From Planctomycetota bacterium (GTDB lineage Bacteria > Planctomycetota > PLA2), in contig JAJFFF010000044.1 of NCBI GenBank assembly GCA_021776785.1, positions 282,230 to 346,229 of the forward strand: DNA of 64,000 nucleotides. Direction: 5' to 3'. The notes under the pieces are model-generated. The model did no database searches. It had not been told where the DNA came from and was given only the letters and a program-made list of their open reading frames with translations. Below, one piece after another: positions 17,069 to 30,203 of the stretch. Numbering within the stretch: the stretch's first letter is position 1; each line of letters opens with the position of its first letter. A program made the translations under genes and the position numbers.

Positions 17069-18502
17069 TTAGCGCGTCTGGCAGGAGTTGCAGTGGATGT
17101 CTTCGTCGCCGGCGCGGCTATCCGCCCAGACAACAAAAACGACGTCCCCGTCGTGGCCGATCTTGGGCTTGCGCGAATCGCTTGCGCCCGCGGCCGAGGT
17201 GTCGGTCCGCATGTCGACGGCCTGCCATGTGGTTCCGTTGTCGTTCGAGAAGTTGAAACGAACGTCATAGGACCCGTCACGGTTGTCTTGCCATGCGGCG
17301 TAGACGTTCGTGCCGGTCGCGGAAATCGTGACCCAGTCCGAACGGGCCGTGCCGGCGTCGTCGGTGTCGATGCGAACATCGTCCGTCAACCAGGTGGCGC
17401 CGCCATCTTTGCTCACGTTCATGAACACGTCGCGGTCCGCCGTGCGGTTGTCAATCCAAACCACATACACCTTGTCGTCCGCGGTGCAGGTGACCTGCGT
17501 GCGGAACGAGAACGTCGCGCCGGCCGTGTCCGTGTCGAGGCGAACATCGGTTGCCAAGAACGTAGTTCCGGCATCGGTGCTCGTCGAGAAGTACGTATCG
17601 GACTGACCGTTACGCGTGTCGGACCAGCTCACATAGACCTTGTCGCCATCGCAGTCGATGGCCGGGTCGAACGAGGTGGCTGCACCCGCGACATCGGTGT
17701 CGAGGCGCACGTCGGCGGCAAGCCAGGTGGCGCCGCGATCCGTCGAAGCGTTCACATAGATGTCTTGCAGGCCGTCACGGTTGTCGTGCCATACGACATA
17801 CACGCGCGCACCGGCCACGGCCATGCGCGGGCGATCCGCCGAGCCAACACTGTTGCTGACCGCGGCCTCGTCCGAGAACGTGGTGCCGCCATCAGCCGAA
17901 CCGCGGAAGTACACAACGCGGCTACCGGTGCGGTCGTCTTCCCAAACAACGTAGACGTTGCTGCCGTCGACCGCAATGCGCGGGTCGCCGGAGATACCAA
18001 CGCCAGCAACGTCCTGATCGAGACGCACGTCCTGCGCGAGCCAAGTCGCGCCACCATCCAGCGAACGCTGGAAGTAGATGTCGTTCTCGCCGTTACGCGC
18101 GTCTTCCCAGACGATGACCACAGTGTTGCCACTGCAGGCGATCTGGACTTCGGCAGACTCGCTGGAACCAGCGACGCTCGTGTTGACGCGCACATCGGCG
18201 GTGCTCCACGTGTCGCCGGCATCCGTCGACTTCGAGAAGTAGATGTCTTTCGCGCCATCGCGGGAGTCTTCCCACGCCGCGTAGACGGTGAGGCCGGTCG
18301 AGCAGATCTGAACGTCGCTAGCGTCGCCGCCAGTGCCGTCGCGATCCACGCGAATGTCGGTCTCCAAAAAGTTCGCGCCGAAGTTGACCGTACCGGTCCC
18401 CGCGGCTAATCCGCTGCTGCCTCCGCTGCAGCCGATCGATACTGTCATGAGCGCGGCGGCGGCTATGCCGCACCATCGGCGCAATGACGTTGACCATTCC
18501 AT
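17069..18502 (-). CDS. BNR/Asp-box repeat beta-propeller lipoprotein (~8 tandem ~43-aa blades)
   Basis: Repeated S-x-D-x-G-x-T-W/F Asp-box motifs (STDAGDTW, SLDGGATW, SADGGTTF, STDRGATW, STDAGTTF, SKDGGATW, SNDNGTTW). The start at 18502 follows AGGAGA and gives MEWSTSLRRWCGIAAAALMTVSIGCSGG (signal plus Cys). The DNA shows ~129-bp periodicity. Confidence 0.75.
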   Translation of the reverse strand: MEWSTSLRRWCGIAAAALMTVSIGCSGGSSGLAAGTGTVNFGANFLETDIRVDRDGTGGDASDVQICSTGLTVYAAWEDSRDGAKDIYFSKSTDAGDTWSTADVRVNTSVAGSSESAEVQIACSGNTVVIVWEDARNGENDIYFQRSLDGGATWLAQDVRLDQDVAGVGISGDPRIAVDGSNVYVVWEDDRTGSRVVYFRGSADGGTTFSDEAAVSNSVGSADRPRMAVAGARVYVVWHDNRDGLQDIYVNASTDRGATWLAADVRLDTDVAGAATSFDPAIDCDGDKVYVSWSDTRNGQSDTYFSTSTDAGTTFLATDVRLDTDTAGATFSFRTQVTCTADDKVYVVWIDNRTADRDVFMNVSKDGGATWLTDDVRIDTDDAGTARSDWVTISATGTNVYAAWQDNRDGSYDVRFNFSNDNGTTWQAVDMRTDTSAAGASDSRKPKIGHDGDVVFVVWADSRAGDEDIHCNSCQTR

Positions 18503-18758
18503 TTGATTCTCCTGCCGGACTTCCCCGTGATTGGACGAACCCATCCGCCCCACTTGCTTTCGCCGGCACCATGAGAATTGGTGGGAAAGCACATCACTTG
18601 ATTTTGAATCGAGAAAAAAGAGCCCGGGGACTGCTTCGAAATGAAACAGCGCCTAGGCGCGCGGCCCGGGATTCCACTGCGGCCGCCCGGCACTATTACC
18701 GCGCCGACCTCACGTTACACCTTCCGCGACGCGCCAAAACTCCGATGATCATGGCGTC

Positions 18759-19197: not shown

Positions 19198-19641
19198 TTA
19201 CGGCTGCAGCGCGTAGCGCAAGATCTCGACGACCTGCTCCGGCGAATCGGCAACGGCTAACGCGGCGCGATCGACTTCTTTCAACGCATGGCCGAGCTCG
19301 TCGGGATGAAGCGTGATCACAGGCTTGCCGAGCGCCGCCGCGTAGCCCGCGTCAAAAGCAGCGTTCCACTGCCGGTACTTGTCCCCGAAACGCACCACGA
19401 CAAAGTCGGCGGCCGCGATGAGGTGGCGAGTCCGCACGGCATTGACACCAGCCCCCTTGTGGTCCCGCCAAACCGGCTTTTCTTCCGGCCCTAAAATGTC
19501 CACCCCGCACGCATCACTCTTGCCGTGGTCGGTGACGGGAGCCGTCAAGACCACCGGTAAGCCGAGCTGCTCAACGCCGGCGCGGATCCGATCGCGCCAA
19601 TCGGAGTGGATTTCGCCCGAGAGATACACCTGAGTTGCCAT
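19198..19641 (-). CDS. YtoQ-family protein (nucleoside 2-deoxyribosyltransferase-like fold)
   Basis: MATQVYLSGEIHSDWRDRI...LTAPVTDHGKSD...GPEEKP resembles the Bacillus YtoQ N-terminus (VYLAGEIHSNWREEI). Confidence 0.65.
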   Translation of the reverse strand: MATQVYLSGEIHSDWRDRIRAGVEQLGLPVVLTAPVTDHGKSDACGVDILGPEEKPVWRDHKGAGVNAVRTRHLIAAADFVVVRFGDKYRQWNAAFDAGYAAALGKPVITLHPDELGHALKEVDRAALAVADSPEQVVEILRYALQP

Positions 19642-19696: not shown

Positions 19697-20092
19697 ATGC
19701 GTTCTTCTCAATTTCTCCTCCCCCTCCTCCCGATCCTGCTGGCAGCATGCGAACCGTCGCCGGAGACCCCCAAAGACTCCTCCGACGGCGAACAGGCAAC
19801 AGCGCAGCGGCCTGTCGTTCGTTACTACGTCCTCTCCGAGTCGTGACCGTTTTGCCAAAAGGTCGTAGTTGCGATCAACAAAATCAAACCTGACTTTTCG
19901 GACCGTGTGGACTTCGAGATCCTCGACGCCAATTCGGTCGCCGGCAAAGCCGCTTCCGCCAAGCACGGTTGGGATTTGGGCCCGCGCCACGGCATCGCGA
20001 TGGAGCGCGGGGACGAAGTCCTCAACAGCCTGTCCGGCCACAGCTATGGCGAGCAACACATTCGCGACATGATCGAAGTGGGGCTCTCATAG
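19697..20092 (+). CDS. Thioredoxin-fold (redox_disulf_1/Thioredoxin_3-like) lipoprotein with an in-frame TGA at the first Cys of the CxxC motif. Candidate selenoprotein (UxxC), alternatively a nonsense pseudogene.
   Basis: ATG at 19697 opens MRSSQFLLPLLPILLAACEPSP... (lipobox LAAC) ...RPVVRYYVLSES-[TGA 19844-19846]-PFCQKVVVAINKIKPDFSDRVDFEILDANSVAGKAASAKHGWDLGPRHGIAMERGDEVLNSLSGHSYGEQHIRDMI, stopping at TAG 20090. The part after the TGA aligns to the archaeal/bacterial small thioredoxin family (kIevFtSptCPyC...idVEkiDimvd...AieyGimaVPaiaiNGvv...GaPs.eel), with U in place of the first Cys. Confidence 0.5.
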
Positions 20093-22311
20093 TCGATCGC
20101 GTTCGTATCGTCGAACAACAGTTCGACGACTATCTCGAGACCGCAACGGCCGCGCCGACGCCTCTGGCGGGGGACGCGCCGCTGCGTCCGGGGAGCCGTC
20201 TGTCGGCACGGCGCGCGCTCGCGCTGTTTGAAGATCAGGTGACGAGCCGGGCCCTCGACGTGGCCGCACGCCGCCTAAAAACGCACGGTGCTTCCTACTA
20301 CACGATCTCCAGTGCCGGACATGAGCAGAACGCGATCATCGGTTCGCTGCTGCGCACAACGGATCCGTGCTTTCTCCACTACCGCTCGGGCGGACTGATG
20401 ATGGCGCGCGCGCGCCAGCACCCGTCGGCCACGCCGATCTTCGACACGCTCCTAAGCCTCTGCGCTTCGCGCGACGATCCGATTTCTGGAGGACGCCACA
20501 AGGTGTGGGGTTCCAAAGAACTCTGGGTTCCGCCGCAGACTTCAACGATCGCGTCGCACCTTCCGAAAGCGGTCGGCGCAGCGTTCGCGCTGGGTCGCGC
20601 ACGGCGCGTGGGCATCGACGCGCCGCTTCCGCCCGACGCGATCGTGTGCGCATCGTTCGGCGACGCGTCCGCAAACCACGCCACCGCGTTGACCGGCATC
20701 AACGCCGCGCGCTACGCGAACCGGCGCGGCAACCAAGTACCGATTCTGTTCGTCTGCGAAGACAACGGCATCGGCATCTCGGTCGAAACTCCGCGCCGCT
20801 GGATTCGAGACGCGTTCGGAAACCTTGCTCACCTCCACTACTTCGAAGCGGACGGCGAACTGGAGCAGATGTGGGATACGTGCGCTGGCGCGATCGACTT
20901 TTGTCGCGCGGGACGCGGCCCCGTGTTTTTGCACCTGCGCTGCGTTCGCTTGTGGGGCCACGCCGGAAGCGATATCGAAACGGCGTATCGTGCGCTGCCG
21001 GAGATCGTAAGCAGCGAACGCCGCGACCCGTTGCTGGGTAACGCCCGACGGTTGATCGAGACCGGCGCGGCGGCCCCCGCAACACTGCGCAACATCGTAC
21101 GCGACGTGCGCCACCGTGTGACGGCGGCGTCGGTGGACGCCAGCCAGCGCGGCCACCTCGACACGCTCGCGGAAGTCACGGCCCCGATGGCTCCGTATGA
21201 CGCTCCGCGCTGCCGCGCGGCCGCCGATGCTGCACTGCGACCCGCCGACCGACGCGACGCGTGGGGCGAAGGACTTCCCGAAGCGGAAACCGCGCCGTCC
21301 AAGCGCACGATGGCGGCGCACATCAACGCGGCGTTGACCGACGAGATGGCGCGGCGGCGCGAGATCGTCGTGTTCGGTGAGGACGTTGGAAAAAAGGGTG
21401 GCGTCTACTACGTGACGGCGGGACTGCAAAAGAAGTTCGGCGCATCGCGCGTGTTCGACACCCTGCTCGACGAAACCACGATCCTGGGCGTGGCGCAGGG
21501 GGCCGCGCTGGTTGGCTTGTTGCCCGTGCCCGAGATTCAGTATCTGGCGTACGTGCACAACGCCGTCGATCAGTTGCGCGGCGAGGCGAGTTCGCTCTCA
21601 TTTTTCTCCAACGGCCAGTTTGTCAATCCCATGGTCGTCCGCATCGCTTCATTCGCCTACCAACGCGGCTTCGGCGGTCACTTCCACAACGACAATTCGA
21701 TCGGCGGACTACGCGACATTCCGGGCCTTGTGATGGCGGCGCCCTCGCGCGGCGACGATGCCGCGAAAATGCTGCGCGGCTGCCTGGCGATGGCGGCGGA
21801 ATGCGGACGCGTCGTTTGTTTTCTCGAACCCATCGCGCTGTACCACCAAAAAGACCTCTACGAGGAGGGCGACGGCGGTTGGCTGTTCGACTACCCGCCG
21901 CCCGGCGCATCGCTCCTGCCCGACGAAGTCGGCGTGTACGGCGATGGCGACGTCACGATTTTCAGCTACGCCAACGGCCTGCGCCTGAGCCTCCGTGCCG
22001 CGCGCACGCTGCAAGAACAACATGGCCGGCGTGTGAAAGTTGTGGACCTGCGCTGGCTTAATCCGCTCCCGACGCTTGCGATCGAAGAGCATGCGCACGA
22101 GGCGGCGAGCGTTATCGTGGTGGACGAGTGCCGCGCCACCGGCGGCGGGATCGCGGACGCGGTCATCGCTCATCTCGCCGAAACCGGCTACCGCGGTCGC
22201 CTTCGCTCCGTGCGCGCCGCCGACAGTTTTGTTCCGCTGGGGCCGCCCACGGCCGCGGTGCTCGTGTGCGAAGATGACATCGTGACCACGGTCTTGGAGG
22301 CCACGTCTTGA
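19969..22311 (+). CDS. TPP-dependent 2-oxoacid dehydrogenase E1 component, fused alpha and beta subunits
   Basis: N-terminal half ...YRSGGLMMAR...ICASFGDASANHATALTGINAARY (E1 alpha TPP-binding). C-terminal half MAAHINAALTDEMARRREIVVFGEDVGKKGGVYYVTAGLQKKFGASRVFDTLLDETTILGVAQGAALVGL (E1 beta/transketolase-like). The start is uncertain: the only in-frame start upstream of the conserved region is TTG at 19969, which lies inside the preceding ORF. Confidence 0.8.
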   Translation: MGFGPAPRHRDGARGRSPQQPVRPQLWRATHSRHDRSGALIVDRVRIVEQQFDDYLETATAAPTPLAGDAPLRPGSRLSARRALALFEDQVTSRALDVAARRLKTHGASYYTISSAGHEQNAIIGSLLRTTDPCFLHYRSGGLMMARARQHPSATPIFDTLLSLCASRDDPISGGRHKVWGSKELWVPPQTSTIASHLPKAVGAAFALGRARRVGIDAPLPPDAIVCASFGDASANHATALTGINAARYANRRGNQVPILFVCEDNGIGISVETPRRWIRDAFGNLAHLHYFEADGELEQMWDTCAGAIDFCRAGRGPVFLHLRCVRLWGHAGSDIETAYRALPEIVSSERRDPLLGNARRLIETGAAAPATLRNIVRDVRHRVTAASVDASQRGHLDTLAEVTAPMAPYDAPRCRAAADAALRPADRRDAWGEGLPEAETAPSKRTMAAHINAALTDEMARRREIVVFGEDVGKKGGVYYVTAGLQKKFGASRVFDTLLDETTILGVAQGAALVGLLPVPEIQYLAYVHNAVDQLRGEASSLSFFSNGQFVNPMVVRIASFAYQRGFGGHFHNDNSIGGLRDIPGLVMAAPSRGDDAAKMLRGCLAMAAECGRVVCFLEPIALYHQKDLYEEGDGGWLFDYPPPGASLLPDEVGVYGDGDVTIFSYANGLRLSLRAARTLQEQHGRRVKVVDLRWLNPLPTLAIEEHAHEAASVIVVDECRATGGGIADAVIAHLAETGYRGRLRSVRAADSFVPLGPPTAAVLVCEDDIVTTVLEATS

Positions 22312-23297
22312 AACGCACCGTCATCGTCTTGCCCGGACGCGGCTCGTACACAAAACGCGCCCGCCGCTCGCTCCCGACAGAGCACGCGTGGGTCGCACGC
22401 GCGGACGCACTGCGCGCGGAGTACGGGCTGCCCTCGCTGGTCGAGCTCGACCACGCCGATCGATGGAAGAGCTCCGTCCAACTTCGGCCCGACAACGTGT
22501 CGCCCACGATCTGGTTGATCTCGATGATCGACGCGCACGCCGCGATGCAGGAGCACGAGGCGGTCGCTGTGGCCGGCAATTCAATGGGTTGGTACACCGC
22601 GCTTGCCGTCGCCGGCGTGCTCTCGTTCGACGACGGGTTCCGCCTTGTCCAGGAGATGGCGCTGCTGCAGATGGAGCACAAAGACGGCGGGCAGATTCTC
22701 TACCCGTTGGTCGACGATCAATGGCGCGTCGACCCCCGTCAAGTCGACCGCGTGCAGGCGGTGCTGGCCTCGCGCGACGACGTTTTCGAGTCCATTCGTT
22801 TGGGCGGTTTCGTGGTGCTCGCCGGAACTGAAGACGGCGTGGGCGCTATCCTCGACACGCTGCCCGGCGTGGAGATGGGTCCGAGCGTGTTCCCGGTCCG
22901 ACTGGCGCAACATGGTCCCTATCACACCGCACTGCTCAACGCCGTCGCGCAAAAAGCGCGCGCGCAGTTGTCGCGTTTGCCATTTCGCGCGCCCGATGTC
23001 ACGCTCATTGACGGCACCGGCCGGCGCCACACGCCGGCGTCCGCGGATCCGGTGGCGCTGCGCGATTACACGCTCGGCGATCAGATCACGACGCTGTTCG
23101 ACTTCACAACGTCGATCCGCGTCGCGTACCGCGAGTTCGCGCCTGACTTTTTGACGCTGACCGGCCCCGGCAACACGTTGGGAAGCATCTGCGCGCACGT
23201 AGCGATCGCCAATCGCGTACGGAAGATCGAGTCGCGGCACGAATTTGAAGCCGTTCAGGAAAGCGATTCCCCCCTCCTCTGGTCCATGCGACGCTGA
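22308..23297 (+). CDS. Acyltransferase-domain protein (FabD/malonyl-CoA:ACP transacylase-like)
   Basis: VIVLPGRGSY (compare FabD FPGQGSQ). VAVAGNSMGWYTALAVAGVLSFDDGFRLVQEMALLQ matches the GHSxG nucleophile elbow and downstream helix of FabD (GHSLGEYSALVAAG..SFED..KLV). ATGA overlap with the E1 stop. Confidence 0.65.
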   Translation: MKRTVIVLPGRGSYTKRARRSLPTEHAWVARADALRAEYGLPSLVELDHADRWKSSVQLRPDNVSPTIWLISMIDAHAAMQEHEAVAVAGNSMGWYTALAVAGVLSFDDGFRLVQEMALLQMEHKDGGQILYPLVDDQWRVDPRQVDRVQAVLASRDDVFESIRLGGFVVLAGTEDGVGAILDTLPGVEMGPSVFPVRLAQHGPYHTALLNAVAQKARAQLSRLPFRAPDVTLIDGTGRRHTPASADPVALRDYTLGDQITTLFDFTTSIRVAYREFAPDFLTLTGPGNTLGSICAHVAIANRVRKIESRHEFEAVQESDSPLLWSMRR

Positions 23298-27410: not shown

Positions 27411-30203
27411 ATGAACGACCCGGCTTCTTCTCCTGATGCGCTGCTCGCGCACACCGAATTCGTGCGCGCGCTCGCACGGCGGCTCCTCCGCGACGAGCAC
27501 GGCGCGGAGGACGTCACACAGCAAACGATGCTGGCCGCGCTCGAGTCGCCGCCGCGGGATCACACGAAGTGGCGACCGTGGCTCAGTCGCGTCACCCGCA
27601 ACTTCGCGTTTCGCTCCCGGCGGGATGCGACACGTCGGCGGCGGTGGGAGACGGCCGGTGCAAAACCGATTGATATTCCGTCGCCCCAAGACATCCGCGA
27701 TCGCGAAGCGGCGCGGCGCGACGTCGTCGAGGCGGTGCTGCAGTTGGCAGAGCCGTATCGAACCACCATCATCTTGCGATATTTGGAAGAGTTGCCGCCG
27801 CGGGATGTCGCACGGCGGATGAACGCACCTGTCGAAACGGTGCGTACGCGCACGCGCCGCGCGGTCGAACAACTGCGCAACACGCTGGAACAAGAACCGA
27901 CGCGGGATTGGCGAGCGGGGCTCGCGCTTCTGGCGACGCCCAAAGCATGGGGAGCGATTGCGATGTCCGCAAAATCGAAGTGGATCGGTGCTGCAGTGGG
28001 AGCGCTTTTGCTTGCGCTCATTCCGGTTTGGATGGCCTATCGGCACCAGCCTGGAAGCGGTGACCGCGCCGAACGTACGACGGCCGAGCGGGCCACGCCC
28101 CTCGACACGTCAACGACCGCCCCGCCAACGTCGACATCGGCGTCGACGGACGTGGCCACCGGCATCGAAGGCGTCGTCCGCGGGCCGAGCGGCCCGATCG
28201 CGGACGCGTTCGTGGTGCTTGTGGACGGCGGCGACAAGGTCGCGCGACGACGTACGACCGCGACCGGCCGCTTCGCGTTTAAGCAAACGGGAACGTTTGA
28301 CGTCATCGCCGCGCATCCCGACTACCAGCCCGGTGCCGCGACCGTGACCGCGGAGGGCAAGAGCGCCACACGCGTCGACCTCGTTCTGAAGGCCAGCGAT
28401 CCCATCGCGTTCCGCGTGACCGACGGTTCGACCAAGAGAGTTCTCGACGACGTCGAAGTCTTGGTCATCGTCTCGGGCGACGCTACGAACGCGGCGCTCG
28501 AAACGCTGCTCGCCGAAGGCGGTTTGTGGAAACTGATCCCGCGGCTAAGTGTCTACGACTCGTTGATGGATGCGTTCGCTGGACTGCGCGGGAGCGGTGT
28601 CGTTTACATCCCGCCGATCAAGACGTCAAACGGCGTGGCGCACCTGCGCGGTCTTCTGCCGCGTGGCCGCTTCCAGGCCATCGTCAGCCGACACGGCTAC
28701 GCGCCGCTCCTGGTTACGCGCGACGCCATCGGGGATCAGCTGGACGTCACGCTGCAACCGCAGTCCACGCTGCGCGTCACCGCCCCCAACATCGACGGCC
28801 AACCGGCGGTGGGAGCGTGGTGCGAAGTCAACCGGCCCGGGTTGTTTCTGCCCATGCCGGTCAATCGCGCGCAGTTCGACGAAAACGGTCGCGTCGAGTT
28901 CGGCGAGCTCAGTGCCGGGCTGTATGAGGTCATCGTGTCGCGCGACGGCACGTGGGCGCTGGGCGCAAAGGCTCCCAACGCCGACAGTCAGGGCCGAGTC
29001 TCGGTCGGACGCAACGCGACCGCCATCCTTGCGCAGCGCCGCGTCGAGCTGGCCCCAAATCAAACCCACACAGTTCACTTCGGCGGCCCGGAAACCGGTC
29101 GGATCGTCGGCACGATCGCGGCCGGCGATGGCGGCGCGATGATCAACAAGGTGTGGCAAGTGCGGCTGCGACGAGATGACAACGACGTCGCGACAACCAA
29201 CGCCAAAGACGGAAAGTTCGTCTTCGAGAGCGTGGCGCCTGGTTCGTACCGTGTTGTCGCCACCGCATTGGCGAGCGGCGCGAGCGTGACGACCGACGTG
29301 GCGGTGCGTGCGGGGTCGGGCGATACCGTTGTCTCGTTGCGCGCCGAGTCCGGCGGCGTGCGCGGCTCGGTGCGAGGTCGCAACGGTCAACCGTTGCCGG
29401 GAGCGCGCATGCTGATTCTCCGCTATGACGTAGCCCGCACACTGGCACGTCAAGACCCGCGCGGAACCAACGAAGTGTTGTCGCTTCTCTCGCGTGGTTT
29501 TGAGAGCGATCGCAACGGTCGGTTTGAGCGGCCCATGACGGCGGGTCACTACGTCGTTTTTGCGGCAAACGACGGATCCGCGGATTTTCGCGAGGTGCAC
29601 ATCAAAGCAAACGCGCAGACCGAGGTCGCGCTCGATCTGAGTCCGGCCCGTGTCTTCCCGGTCGCGCTCGAGCTCGTTGATCGGGACAAACCCGTCGCGG
29701 GCCACATCTTTCTCCGCGGTTATCTCGGTGGATTCGTGCTCGCGTTTCTCCTGGACGAGGACGCCATGGCTCCCGACGCCAAGCCGATCACCGCGCGGCG
29801 CTATCGACTGCCGAAGGGGCGCTACTTGCTCAACGTTATGGCGCCCGGCCGCGCGCCGATCCTCCAACTTCCGATTCACACGACCGGCGCGTACTCGCTT
29901 CGCATACCCGTCGCCCGCGGCGTGTCGGCAACGCTCACGCTGACCGAAAACGACGCGCCCTTGCGCCACGTCGACCTCGCCCTGCAAACGGCGCTGGGAA
30001 CGACCGTCCATCGCGCGGGCCACCCCGCCGCGCTGTTCGCGCGCAGCCACGGCTGGCGTACCGACAACGCCGGTACGCTTGTGATCCCTTGCCTGCTGCC
30101 CGGCCGCTACGTGCTTCTCCGCCAGGACCGAAAGATCGCATCATTTCGCGTCACCGACGAGCCCCTGACGACTCGGATCGCCCTGGCCGCTCCGCCACGC
30201 TAG
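27411..30203 (+). CDS. ECF (sigma-70 group IV) sigma factor fused in-frame to a transmembrane anti-sigma-like segment and a ~700-aa extracytoplasmic region with CarboxypepD_reg-like beta-sandwich repeats
   Basis: N-terminal 170 aa: EDVTQQTMLAAL (region 2) and RYLEELPPRDVARRMNAPVETVRTRTRRAVEQLR (region 4 HTH). Then the TM helix WIGAAVGALLLALIPVWMAY. Then IEGVVRGPSGPIADAFVVLVDG...GRFAF and further repeats. A single uninterrupted 930-aa ORF. Confidence 0.7.
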   Translation: MNDPASSPDALLAHTEFVRALARRLLRDEHGAEDVTQQTMLAALESPPRDHTKWRPWLSRVTRNFAFRSRRDATRRRRWETAGAKPIDIPSPQDIRDREAARRDVVEAVLQLAEPYRTTIILRYLEELPPRDVARRMNAPVETVRTRTRRAVEQLRNTLEQEPTRDWRAGLALLATPKAWGAIAMSAKSKWIGAAVGALLLALIPVWMAYRHQPGSGDRAERTTAERATPLDTSTTAPPTSTSASTDVATGIEGVVRGPSGPIADAFVVLVDGGDKVARRRTTATGRFAFKQTGTFDVIAAHPDYQPGAATVTAEGKSATRVDLVLKASDPIAFRVTDGSTKRVLDDVEVLVIVSGDATNAALETLLAEGGLWKLIPRLSVYDSLMDAFAGLRGSGVVYIPPIKTSNGVAHLRGLLPRGRFQAIVSRHGYAPLLVTRDAIGDQLDVTLQPQSTLRVTAPNIDGQPAVGAWCEVNRPGLFLPMPVNRAQFDENGRVEFGELSAGLYEVIVSRDGTWALGAKAPNADSQGRVSVGRNATAILAQRRVELAPNQTHTVHFGGPETGRIVGTIAAGDGGAMINKVWQVRLRRDDNDVATTNAKDGKFVFESVAPGSYRVVATALASGASVTTDVAVRAGSGDTVVSLRAESGGVRGSVRGRNGQPLPGARMLILRYDVARTLARQDPRGTNEVLSLLSRGFESDRNGRFERPMTAGHYVVFAANDGSADFREVHIKANAQTEVALDLSPARVFPVALELVDRDKPVAGHIFLRGYLGGFVLAFLLDEDAMAPDAKPITARRYRLPKGRYLLNVMAPGRAPILQLPIHTTGAYSLRIPVARGVSATLTLTENDAPLRHVDLALQTALGTTVHRAGHPAALFARSHGWRTDNAGTLVIPCLLPGRYVLLRQDRKIASFRVTDEPLTTRIALAAPPR

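What the first reader, a model, noticed from the sequence alone, without database searches (positions are those of the whole stretch)
19697..20092. In-frame TGA replaces the first Cys of CxxC in a small thioredoxin-fold lipoprotein, a candidate UxxC selenoprotein
One reading frame carries ATG(19697), a lipoprotein signal (LLPLLPILLAAC), ...YYVLSES, then TGA (19844-19846), then PFCQKVVVAINK...DFEILDANSVAGKAASAKHGWDLGPRHGIAMERGDEV...TAG. The post-TGA part aligns with the small thioredoxin family whose active site is S-x-x-C-P-x-C. Here the motif reads S-E-S-[TGA]-P-F-C, so the stop sits exactly where the nucleophilic Cys belongs. Cys-to-Sec substitution at CxxC is the classic signature of bacterial selenoproteins. 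Coding periodicity continues through the TGA. A hairpin (GACCGUUUUGCCAAAAGGUC) begins at the TGA itself, and a second small stem (GUUGCGAUCAAC) lies about 20 nt downstream, which are possible SECIS candidates. The gene is also the first gene of an operon with the E1 dehydrogenase. The alternative is a TGC-to-TGA nonsense pseudogene.
Basis: partly seen in the sequence, partly recalled or inferred. Interest (0 to 1): 0.8.

Follow-up and report, generated by a model that had tools for sequence, protein, structure and literature searches.

The report
Uncatalogued selenocysteine thioredoxin-fold lipoprotein family
The in-frame TGA is almost certainly a selenocysteine codon in a small exported thioredoxin-like lipoprotein. 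The protein belongs to a widespread, so far uncatalogued family from Planctomycetota that gene callers always cut in two and that has almost no cysteine versions.

Summary
ATG 19697, TGA 19844-19846 and TAG 20090-20092 lie in one frame and give S-E-S-[TGA]-P-F-C after a lipoprotein signal.

The TGA is not a lesion. I inspected the DNA of about 40 distinct homologues (27-65% identical): one genome MAG, 35 metagenome loci and contigs of called fragments. All carry TGA at this column, followed by P-[FYM]-C, and protein conservation runs across it. The metagenome pattern also allowed TGC and TGT, yet 35 of 35 hits had TGA. One 3'-truncated copy has TGT.

Profile searches of 5.8 billion proteins find 155 family members. 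Of the 120 listed, 119 are 73-83 aa fragments that start after the TGA. The other is that TGT copy (78 aa).

Hairpins sit at SECIS distance. In the main clade the hairpin is backed by invariant synonymous sites. In the window, 19861-19876 meets three of four bSECIS criteria.

Sec machinery could not be checked. The window has no selA, selB, selD or tRNA-Sec.

An extra point: the downstream E1 gene has no canonical start. ATA overlaps the TAG stop, which suggests translational coupling to Sec decoding.

The parts
19697..20092 (+). Complete selenoprotein gene (131 codons including Sec50; stop TAG 20090-20092).
   Evidence: Orthologues with the same architecture and the same in-frame TGA.
19697..19750 (+). 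Lipoprotein-type signal peptide MRSSQFLLPLLPILLAAC. The lipobox is L-A-A-C and the lipidated Cys18 codon is 19748-19750.
   Evidence: Seen by sequence inspection. Lipobox signals recur across the family.
19751..19807 (+). Low-complexity Pro/Glu/Ser/Ala-rich tether between the lipid anchor and the domain.
   Evidence: homologues have 20-75 residue Ala/Pro-rich linkers of variable length.
19808..20089 (+). Thioredoxin-fold domain, from R38 (R-P-V-V-R-Y-Y, strand beta1) to the C-terminus.
19844..19846 (+). In-frame TGA, the proposed selenocysteine codon (residue 50). It is always followed by C (UGA-C context).
   Evidence: TGA sits at this column in all ~40 distinct homologues inspected. 35 of 35 hits to a pattern that also allowed TGC/TGT carry TGA.
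19844..19855 (+). Redox motif U-P-F-C.
   Evidence: U, P and C are invariant and F is nearly invariant. The motif aligns on the C-P-x-C of 5um7 and 1nho.
19861..19876 (+). Candidate bacterial SECIS hairpin GGUCGU[AGUU]GCGAUC: a 6-bp stem and a 4-nt loop, with the loop starting 20 nt after UGA.
   Evidence: The same hairpin sits at the same place in L001, L082 and L083, with loop GGUC. It is the only hairpin in the 16-37 nt range shared by all four. dG is -6.4 kcal/mol, weaker than the model's -7.5. Synonymous-shuffle P is about 0.1.
19988..19993 (+). Invariant His98-Gly99, just before strand beta3, where thioredoxins carry the cis-Pro.
   Evidence: Invariant in alignments A4 and A5.
20036..20041 (+). 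Invariant Gly114-His115, in the loop before the last helix.
20089..22311 (+). Fused alpha/beta E1 (TPP-dependent 2-oxoacid dehydrogenase component). Its probable start is the non-canonical ATA at 20089-20091, which overlaps the selenoprotein stop TAG. The only upstream canonical in-frame start is TTG at 19969.
   Evidence: Pfam domains E1_dh, Transket_pyr and Transketolase_C. Start-codon comparison with about 45 homologues. Junctions in the four syntenic loci.
19198..19641 (-). Divergently oriented YtoQ-like nucleoside 2-deoxyribosyltransferase-family gene. It serves as a synteny marker for the window's subclade.
   Evidence: Pfam PF11071, E = 9e-63. The same neighbour is present in L001 and L081-L085.

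Best explanation
Window 19697-20092 is one intact gene for a lipid-anchored, exported thioredoxin-fold selenoprotein.

How it is made:
- The UGA at 19844-19846 is decoded as selenocysteine, giving a U-P-F-C redox centre at the N-terminus of helix 1.
- Decoding is presumably directed by a SelB-binding hairpin just downstream in the coding sequence. The candidate in the window is 19861-19876.
- It may be helped by the invariant weak termination context UGA-C.

What the protein probably does:
- After export and lipidation at Cys18, the ~94-residue domain hangs on a flexible tether in the periplasm.
- It most likely acts as a selenol/thiol-disulfide oxidoreductase.
- Two invariant histidines (His98-Gly99 at the cis-Pro position, Gly114-His115) probably flank the Sec.

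The family:
- The gene belongs to a family of at least 155 sequence clusters. All members that carry a taxon label are Planctomycetota.
- The family is essentially Sec-only and is systematically split by gene callers.

In the window's subclade the gene is followed by an E1 dehydrogenase gene without a canonical start, whose ATA or CTG overlaps the stop codon. E1 is therefore probably translated by ribosomes that have just finished the selenoprotein.

Status of each step:
- Shown: gene integrity, TGA conservation, fold, lipobox, and absence from curated families.
- Inferred: Sec rather than another residue, SECIS identity, periplasmic redox role, and coupling to E1.
For: TGA conservation
- The orthologue in a Planctomycetota MAG (L001, 46% identity, same YtoQ-gene-E1 synteny) has TGA at the same column.
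- An exhaustive HMMER search of 1.84 billion representatives found only 4 relatives, all gene calls that begin just after the motif. Their contigs show in-frame TGA.
- A DNA pattern allowing TGA, TGC or TGT at the column returned 35 metagenome loci. All 35 have TGA and all are true family members with a lipobox, RYY...U-P-F-C and conserved C-terminal halves.
- Further lineages (L123-L129) also carry TGA.
- TGA is also used as the ordinary stop in several family genes and in E1, so the code is not reassigned.

Absence of Cys forms
- The profile search gave 155 hits. Of the 120 listed, 119 are 73-83 aa C-terminal fragments and one is the 78-aa TGT copy P0034. No intact full-length Cys form appeared.

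Fold
- The PDB profile search aligns U-P-F-C on the C-P-x-C of thioredoxin-fold proteins.

SECIS
- In 28 main-clade sequences the codons forming the upper stem and loop (GCC GCC GTG GGC GAG) have codon entropy of about 0. Other invariant 4-fold codons have 0.5-1.5.
- That hairpin is about -12 kcal/mol with a GUG loop 27 nt after UGA.
- L086 keeps a hairpin at the same place with different codons.
- The window subclade shares a 6-bp hairpin with an [A/G]GU[U/C] loop 20 nt after UGA. This fits the published bSECIS model's loop, G-position and spacing rules (PMC13188914).

Other support
- Some Planctomycetes have complete Sec machinery (PMC4807772).
- E1 coupling.
Against: - No selA, selB, selD or tRNA-Sec is present in the 64-kb window or in the fetched family loci. 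The rest of the genome could not be examined, so Sec-decoding capacity of this organism is unproven.
- The window's hairpin is weak: -6.4 kcal/mol against the model's -7.5 or lower. It is not more stable than synonymous-codon shuffles (P about 0.1 per sequence).
- Main-clade hairpin stability is likewise not consistently exceptional.
- Column-wise covariation is slight because the stem hardly varies.
- Rfam finds nothing.
- No conserved gene neighbourhood points to a substrate.
- Only the part after the TGA could be modelled, because of tool restrictions.
Confidence: 0.8

Rival explanations
1. TGC-to-TGA nonsense pseudogene, or a sequencing error, in this genome.
For: A single in-frame stop in an otherwise intact ORF. 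No Sec machinery in the window.
Against: The same TGA is present in about 40 distinct homologues down to 27% identity, from many samples and assemblers. Protein conservation holds on both sides. The same protein neighbourhood is found on an independent Logan assembly.
Confidence: 0.01
2. Two separate genes, as gene callers annotate it: a short lipoprotein or peptide ending at the TGA, and an independent 61-83 aa protein initiated downstream.
For: All database entries are called this way.
Against: The downstream 'starts' fall at different, non-homologous positions (MC.., MK.., VKVV.., VAAV.., VGEL..). In the window the first start is GTG 19907, which would delete helix 1. The two halves are always in the same frame and separated only by the TGA. 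Together they form one thioredoxin fold, with strand 1 and the first redox residue upstream and the rest downstream.
Confidence: 0.03
3. The UGA is recoded, but not to selenocysteine. Options are Cys inserted by a SelB-dependent tRNA-Sec-like Cys tRNA, or near-cognate readthrough (Trp, Cys or Arg) favoured by the UGA-C context.
For: The sequence data cannot tell which residue is inserted. The UGA-C context is invariant. Sec machinery is unverified.
Against: The position is the nucleophilic residue of a CxxC-type motif, the classic Sec site. A conserved hairpin at SelB/SECIS distance is under synonymous constraint. If Cys were the product, ordinary TGC/TGT forms should be common, yet only one (truncated) copy was found.
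Confidence: 0.07
4. It is a selenoprotein, but its job is metal handling (for example Cu(I) or Hg(II) binding or transfer through a Sec-Cys-His-His site) rather than disulfide exchange.
For: Two invariant His lie in the loops that flank the active site of a thioredoxin fold. In one lineage the gene lies next to a YHS/HMBD P-type ATPase, an HMBD protein, an outer-membrane efflux protein and a multicopper oxidase. The review notes that many selenoprotein families are predicted to bind metals.
Against: The copper neighbourhood occurs in one lineage only. Other neighbours are unrelated: MsrB, peptidases, transporters, E1. There is no sequence similarity to Sco, CopZ or MerP families. His-Sec proximity was not measured.
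Confidence: 0.2

Closest known systems
Sec-containing thioredoxin and glutaredoxin (UxxC forms of PF00085 / PF00462) and other thioredoxin-fold UxxC selenoproteins listed in PMC13188914 Table 1
   Same: Thioredoxin fold. Sec takes the place of the N-terminal Cys of CxxC at the start of helix 1. The in-frame UGA is followed by a coding-region hairpin.
   Different: Scores fall below the Pfam cut-offs (12-17 bits against 22.9-23.5). The protein is an exported lipoprotein with a tether. His-Gly replaces the cis-Pro loop, and there is a second invariant Gly-His. Cys forms are essentially absent, whereas Trx and Grx are overwhelmingly Cys proteins.
NCBIfam thioredoxin-like selenoprotein models: SaoT (NF040730), TsoX (NF045809), and the MJ0307 family (TIGR00411)
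   Same: Small thioredoxin-like proteins with a (U/C)xxC motif near the N-terminus. They give weak local matches around the motif.
   Different: Scores of 12-19 bits against cut-offs of 52-93. The motif context, signal peptide and gene neighbourhood all differ.
Periplasmic TlpA/ResA/DsbG-type lipoprotein or membrane-anchored thiol-disulfide oxidoreductases, including their Sec forms (DsbG-like, thiol:disulfide interchange protein)
   Same: A membrane-tethered thioredoxin-fold redox protein outside the cytoplasm. The best PDB sequence hit, 5um7, is deposited only as a 'thioredoxin signature protein'.
   Different: The minimal ~94-residue domain lacks the TlpA/Prx-type insertions. There are no hits to PF08534, PF00578 or cd02966-type models. 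The signature residues differ.
E. coli fdhF SECIS (SelB-binding hairpin with a GGUC apical loop; recalled from memory)
   Same: L001, L082 and L083 have a GGUC tetraloop on a 6-bp stem about 20 nt after UGA. The window has AGUU. The spacing is similar to that of fdhF.
   Different: There is no bulged U and the stem is shorter and weaker. The main clade uses a different, longer hairpin with a GUG or CGUGN loop 27 nt after UGA.

Membership tests
Bacterial selenoprotein gene (Sec-UGA plus bSECIS) | In-frame UGA conserved at the same column in homologues, with coding conservation on both sides. | tested here: met
   About 40 distinct homologues all carry TGA. Residues R, Y upstream and P, C, V, HG, GH downstream are invariant.
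Bacterial selenoprotein gene (Sec-UGA plus bSECIS) | The UGA aligns with Cys in homologues (a Sec/Cys pair). | tested here: met
   The UGA aligns with the first Cys of C-P-x-C in thioredoxin-fold PDB chains. One family member (L122) has TGT at the column. Within the family, however, Cys forms are otherwise absent.
Bacterial selenoprotein gene (Sec-UGA plus bSECIS) | A bSECIS as in the published model (PMC13188914): 3-9 nt loop, 4-16 bp stem, G in the first two loop positions, 16-37 nt from UGA, MFE of -7.5 kcal/mol or lower. | tested here: inconclusive
   The window hairpin 19861-19876 has a 4-nt AGUU loop, a 6-bp stem and 20-nt spacing, but MFE of -6.4. The main-clade hairpin meets all four criteria and shows synonymous-site invariance. 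Shuffle tests are not significant.
Bacterial selenoprotein gene (Sec-UGA plus bSECIS) | selA, selB, selC (tRNA-Sec) and selD present in the same genome. | not testable with these tools
   None is present in the 64-kb window or in the family loci. The rest of the genome is not available. At phylum level, some Planctomycetes have the full set (PMC4807772).
Bacterial selenoprotein gene (Sec-UGA plus bSECIS) | Selenium incorporated into the protein. | not testable with these tools
   Needs 75Se labelling or mass spectrometry.
Thioredoxin fold, CxxC-type oxidoreductase | A b-a-b-a-b-b-a topology with the redox motif at the N-terminus of helix 1. | tested here: met
Thioredoxin fold, CxxC-type oxidoreductase | A conserved cis-Pro loop opposite the active site. 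| tested here: not met
   The residues preceding strand 3 are an invariant His-Gly. Pro96 of the window is not conserved (L001 has Q-A-R-H-G).
Pfam Thioredoxin PF00085 / Glutaredoxin PF00462 / Thioredoxin_3 PF13192 | Score at or above the gathering threshold. | tested here: not met
   12.1-17.2 bits against 22.9-24.8.
NCBIfam selenoprotein and thioredoxin-like models (SaoT NF040730, TsoX NF045809, TIGR00411 and others in release 20.0) | Score at or above the curated cut-off. | tested here: not met
   The best score is 18.9 bits against 52 (TsoX). Others are 12-16 bits against 65-93.
Bacterial lipoprotein | N-terminal signal peptide ending in a lipobox [LVI][ASTG][GA]C. | tested here: met
   The window has MRSSQFLLPLLPILL-A-A-C. 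A signal of this type was found by regex in 28 of 37 distinct N-termini. The rest are at contig edges or have variant boxes visible. No dedicated predictor was available.

The most novel reading that the evidence does not exclude
Sec decoding acts as a translational gate for the downstream enzyme. In the window's subclade the E1 dehydrogenase gene has lost its own canonical start codon. It begins with ATA or CTG overlapping the selenoprotein's stop (ATAG or CTGA). E1 is therefore made only by ribosomes that have read through the UGA as selenocysteine, and E1 output becomes dependent on selenium supply. In addition, the family may be an obligate-Sec protein whose Sec-Cys-His-His site cannot be served by Cys, which would explain the near-absence of Cys homologues.
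Probability: 0.25. Interest if true: 0.7.

Novelty: new member of a known kind. Interest (0 to 1): 0.55.

Why it matters
- It adds a widespread selenoprotein family from Planctomycetota to the prokaryotic selenoproteome. Every public record seen splits the gene in two. NCBI entries MFT4541280.1, NOT30263.1 and MDH3593053.1 are 75-83 aa 'hypothetical proteins'.
- Reviews state that nearly all selenoproteins have abundant Cys homologues, and the main discovery pipelines rely on Sec/Cys pairs (PMC13188914, PMC12013277). A family with almost no Cys forms would be missed by those methods. It is also a useful case for asking when Sec is irreplaceable.
- The stop-start overlap with an E1 gene that lacks a canonical start offers a directly testable link between selenium availability and expression of a central-metabolism-type enzyme.

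Tried and rejected
- A single-sequence word-indexed search with the Cys-substituted protein found nothing.
- The first metagenome scan, with automatically chosen peptide patterns, found no relatives. A hand-designed DNA pattern around the motif then worked.
Only the post-TGA 81 aa could be searched and modelled.
- Rfam found no family in the window or around the TGA.
- The RNAalifold consensus that pairs the UGA itself with GGUC(A/G) is not kept in the window or in L086. It was dropped in favour of the hairpin shared by all four subclade members.
- MFE compared with dinucleotide or synonymous shuffles does not single out the hairpins.
- A GC3-based scan for other TGA-interrupted genes in the window was too noisy to use.
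- The search for a conserved neighbourhood found none across the family.
- A -1 frameshift fusion of the selenoprotein to E1 was considered and rejected. There is no shared slippery site, and an exported lipoprotein fused to a cytoplasmic TPP enzyme is implausible.
- An upstream E1 start (TTG 19969 in the window, ATG at -41 codons in L001 and L083) is not general. In L082 the E1 frame is closed 10 codons upstream.

Full report
**Observation.**
- ATG is at 19697. A lipoprotein-type signal MRSSQFLLPLLPILLAAC follows, with the Cys18 codon at 19748-19750.
- A Pro/Glu/Ser-rich stretch comes next, then RPVVRYYVLSES, TGA at 19844-19846, then PFCQKVVVAINK... up to TAG at 20090-20092.
- Third-position GC is 0.69 before the TGA and 0.75 after it, close to the neighbouring genes (0.76-0.78).
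- Upstream, on the other strand, lies a YtoQ-like gene (PF11071, 19198-19641).
- Directly downstream lies a fused alpha/beta E1 dehydrogenase component of 738 aa, ending at 22311.

**Is the TGA a lesion?** No.
- I scanned genome contigs with the E1 protein and got 80 loci. Only one, a Planctomycetota MAG (L001), has the small gene. It shows the same YtoQ-gene-E1 order and 46% identity, and it has TGA at the same column (ATG TGA CCG TAC TGC).
- An exhaustive HMMER search of 1.84 billion representative proteins with the 81 residues after the TGA found just four relatives. All are 61-75 aa gene calls that begin a few residues after the motif.
- Their contigs (L081-L086) each show an upstream same-frame ORF that ends in TGA, followed by P-F-C. 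L086 is only 37% identical and sits in a different neighbourhood.
- I then scanned metagenome contigs with a DNA pattern for R-[YF]-Y-x5-[TGA/TGC/TGT]-P-[FY]-C-x-[KE]-[VI]-V.
- All 35 loci returned are real family members, and all 35 carry TGA, none TGC or TGT. Further lineages (L123-L129) also have TGA, one with U-P-M-C.
- Family members use TAG, TAA and also TGA as their true stops, and E1 ends in TGA. The genetic code is therefore not reassigned.

**Extent of the family and lack of Cys forms.**
- A profile of 23 members, with C written at the Sec column, found 155 proteins among 5.8 billion clusters. Of the 120 listed, 119 are 73-83 aa C-terminal fragments and one (P0034, 78 aa) spans the motif with Cys.
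- A second profile restricted to the N-terminal 42 residues of the domain again found only fragments.
- P0034/L122 has TGT at the column, but its gene breaks off after RRHGL.
- Members with an NCBI label come from Planctomycetota MAGs and are annotated as short hypothetical proteins.
- Reviews stress that nearly all selenoprotein families have abundant Cys homologues and that discovery pipelines depend on them (PMC13188914; PMC12013277). That would explain why this family is not listed.

**What the protein is.**
- Pfam and NCBIfam give only sub-threshold matches to thioredoxin-fold families: Thioredoxin, Glutaredoxin, Thioredoxin_3, the MJ0307 family, SaoT and TsoX.
- A family profile against PDB sequences hits thioredoxin-fold proteins at E = 6e-4 to 5e-3. 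U-P-F-C aligns on their C-P-x-C.
- Tool restrictions allowed modelling only of the part after the TGA. Its pLDDT is 82.6, and its topology is helix, (strand 2), helix, strand, strand, helix.
- Invariant residues are R40, Y44, U50, P51, C53, V57, H98-G99 and G114-H115.
- His-Gly sits where thioredoxins have the cis-Pro. Gly-His sits in the loop before the last helix. By the known geometry of the fold, both loops border the active site. This is an inference; no distances were measured.
- Almost all complete N-termini carry a signal peptide with a lipobox, followed by an Ala/Pro-rich tether of 20-75 residues.

**SECIS.**
- The published bacterial model asks for a 3-9 nt loop, a 4-16 bp stem, a G in the first two loop positions, 16-37 nt between UGA and the loop, and MFE of -7.5 kcal/mol or lower (PMC13188914).
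- In the main clade a hairpin starts 16-17 nt after UGA, for example UCG-U-AGCCGCC[GUG]GGCG-A-GCUCGA. It is about -12 kcal/mol, and its loop starts 27 nt after UGA.
- The best evidence for that hairpin is at synonymous sites. Across 28 distinct sequences the codons of the upper stem and loop are invariant: GCC 28/28, GCC 28/28, GTG 27/28, GGC 19/19 and GAG 28/28.
- Other invariant four-fold codons in the same genes have codon entropies of 0.5-1.5. The four lowest of 13 such codons are exactly these. By my own count that arrangement has a chance of 1 in 715.
- Two sub-lineages keep the lower stem through a register shift (CUCGA pairing with UCG-A, or CUGCG pairing with CGUG). L086 keeps a hairpin at the same place with different amino acids.
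- Column-wise covariation is weak because the stem hardly varies. Stability compared with synonymous shuffles is not consistently exceptional.
- The window's subclade (window, L001, L082, L083) has different residues here (V-V-[AT]-I-N) and a different hairpin: G[GA]UCGU[(A/G)GU(U/C)][GA]CGAUC.
- In the window this hairpin lies at 19861-19876, with its loop 20 nt after UGA. It is the only hairpin in the allowed range shared by all four sequences.
- It satisfies the loop, G-position and spacing rules. At -6.1 to -7.0 kcal/mol it is weaker than the cut-off, and it is not significant against synonymous shuffles (P about 0.1 each).
- Three of the four have the loop GGUC. As I recall, this is also the apical loop of the E. 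coli fdhF SECIS.
- The base after UGA is always C. From E. coli work, this is the weakest termination context.

**Sec machinery.**
- The window has no tRNA gene and no selA, selB or selD among about 40 ORFs scanned. The family loci have no tRNA-Sec.
- The rest of the genome is out of reach, so this key test is open.
- Some Planctomycetes are reported to have the full set (PMC4807772).

**Neighbourhood and function.**
- Outside the window's subclade the neighbours vary widely: peptidases, sulfatase, transporters, PQQ-like beta-propellers, MsrB in one lineage, and a copper ATPase / multicopper oxidase cluster in another.
- There is thus no conserved partner.
- The best-supported role is a tethered periplasmic selenol/thiol-disulfide oxidoreductase.
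- A metal-handling role using Sec, Cys and the two His is a live alternative.

**The E1 junction.**
- In about 45 E1 homologues without the small gene, an ATG, GTG or TTG lies three codons before the conserved [DN]-R-V-x-[IV]-V-E.
- In the four loci with the selenoprotein gene there is no canonical start there. The window and L082 have ATA two codons before, overlapping the TAG stop (ATAG; window 20089-20092). L001 and L083 have CTG three codons before, overlapping TGA (CTGA).
- In L082 the E1 frame is closed 10 codons upstream, so an earlier start is not a general solution.
- No terminator-like site lies between the genes.
- This pattern fits termination-reinitiation coupling. E1 translation would then depend on ribosomes that pass the Sec codon. 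This is an inference, but it can be tested directly.

**Verdict.**
- It is a new family within a well-known kind, the thioredoxin-fold UxxC selenoproteins.
- Its unusual features are:
  - a lipoprotein anchor;
  - His-Gly in place of the cis-Pro;
  - near-total absence of Cys forms;
  - probable translational coupling to an E1 gene without a canonical start, in this lineage.
- The remaining gap is proof of Sec decoding in the organism.

Noticed in passing
window 20086-20100 (also L001 5990-6003, L082 840-850, L083 1753-1766): The E1 dehydrogenase gene has no canonical start codon. ATA (window, L082) or CTG (L001, L083) overlaps the stop of the selenoprotein gene. E1 homologues without the small gene start with ATG, GTG or TTG at the equivalent place.
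   Followed up: yes
L122 709-945 (JGI 3300037310 Ga0394878_0705422): This is the only family member found with a Cys codon (TGT) at the Sec column. It keeps the main-clade hairpin sequence, but the gene diverges and ends after RRHGL. It could be a decaying copy, a chimeric assembly, or a lineage that lost Sec.
   Followed up: partly
L127 6532-13373 and L128 5053-11894: In one Planctomycetota lineage the family gene lies beside a copper-type cluster: a YHS/HMBD P-type ATPase, an HMBD protein, an outer-membrane efflux protein and a multicopper oxidase. In L129 (8997-10225) it lies beside MsrB (SelR).
   Followed up: partly
window 22308-23297: A 329-aa protein with no Pfam match follows E1, overlapping its stop (TTGA). 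It follows E1 in about 35 of the 80 E1 loci too. It contains G-N-S-M-G-W-Y, which looks like a GxSxG nucleophile elbow (inspection only).
   Followed up: partly
L096 9644-11089; L127 4987-6465; L123 10994-12340: A PQQ_2 (BamB-like) beta-propeller gene, with EF-hand motifs in L096, is a repeated but not universal neighbour of the family gene.
   Followed up: partly
window 27411-30203: A 930-aa ORF with ECF sigma-factor regions 2 and 4 at the N-terminus, continuing into CarboxypepD_reg and SdrD_B-like domains. It is either an unusual fusion or two genes read as one ORF.
   Followed up: no
window 17069-18592 (- strand): A 507-aa BNR/Asp-box repeat protein with a highly repetitive D-x-R-x-D/T-D-x-A-G pattern. 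A related fragment lies next to the orthologous locus L083.
   Followed up: no
L093 1348-1442: ARAGORN calls a 95-nt tRNA-Arg(GCG), which is unusually long for a bacterial tRNA.
   Followed up: no
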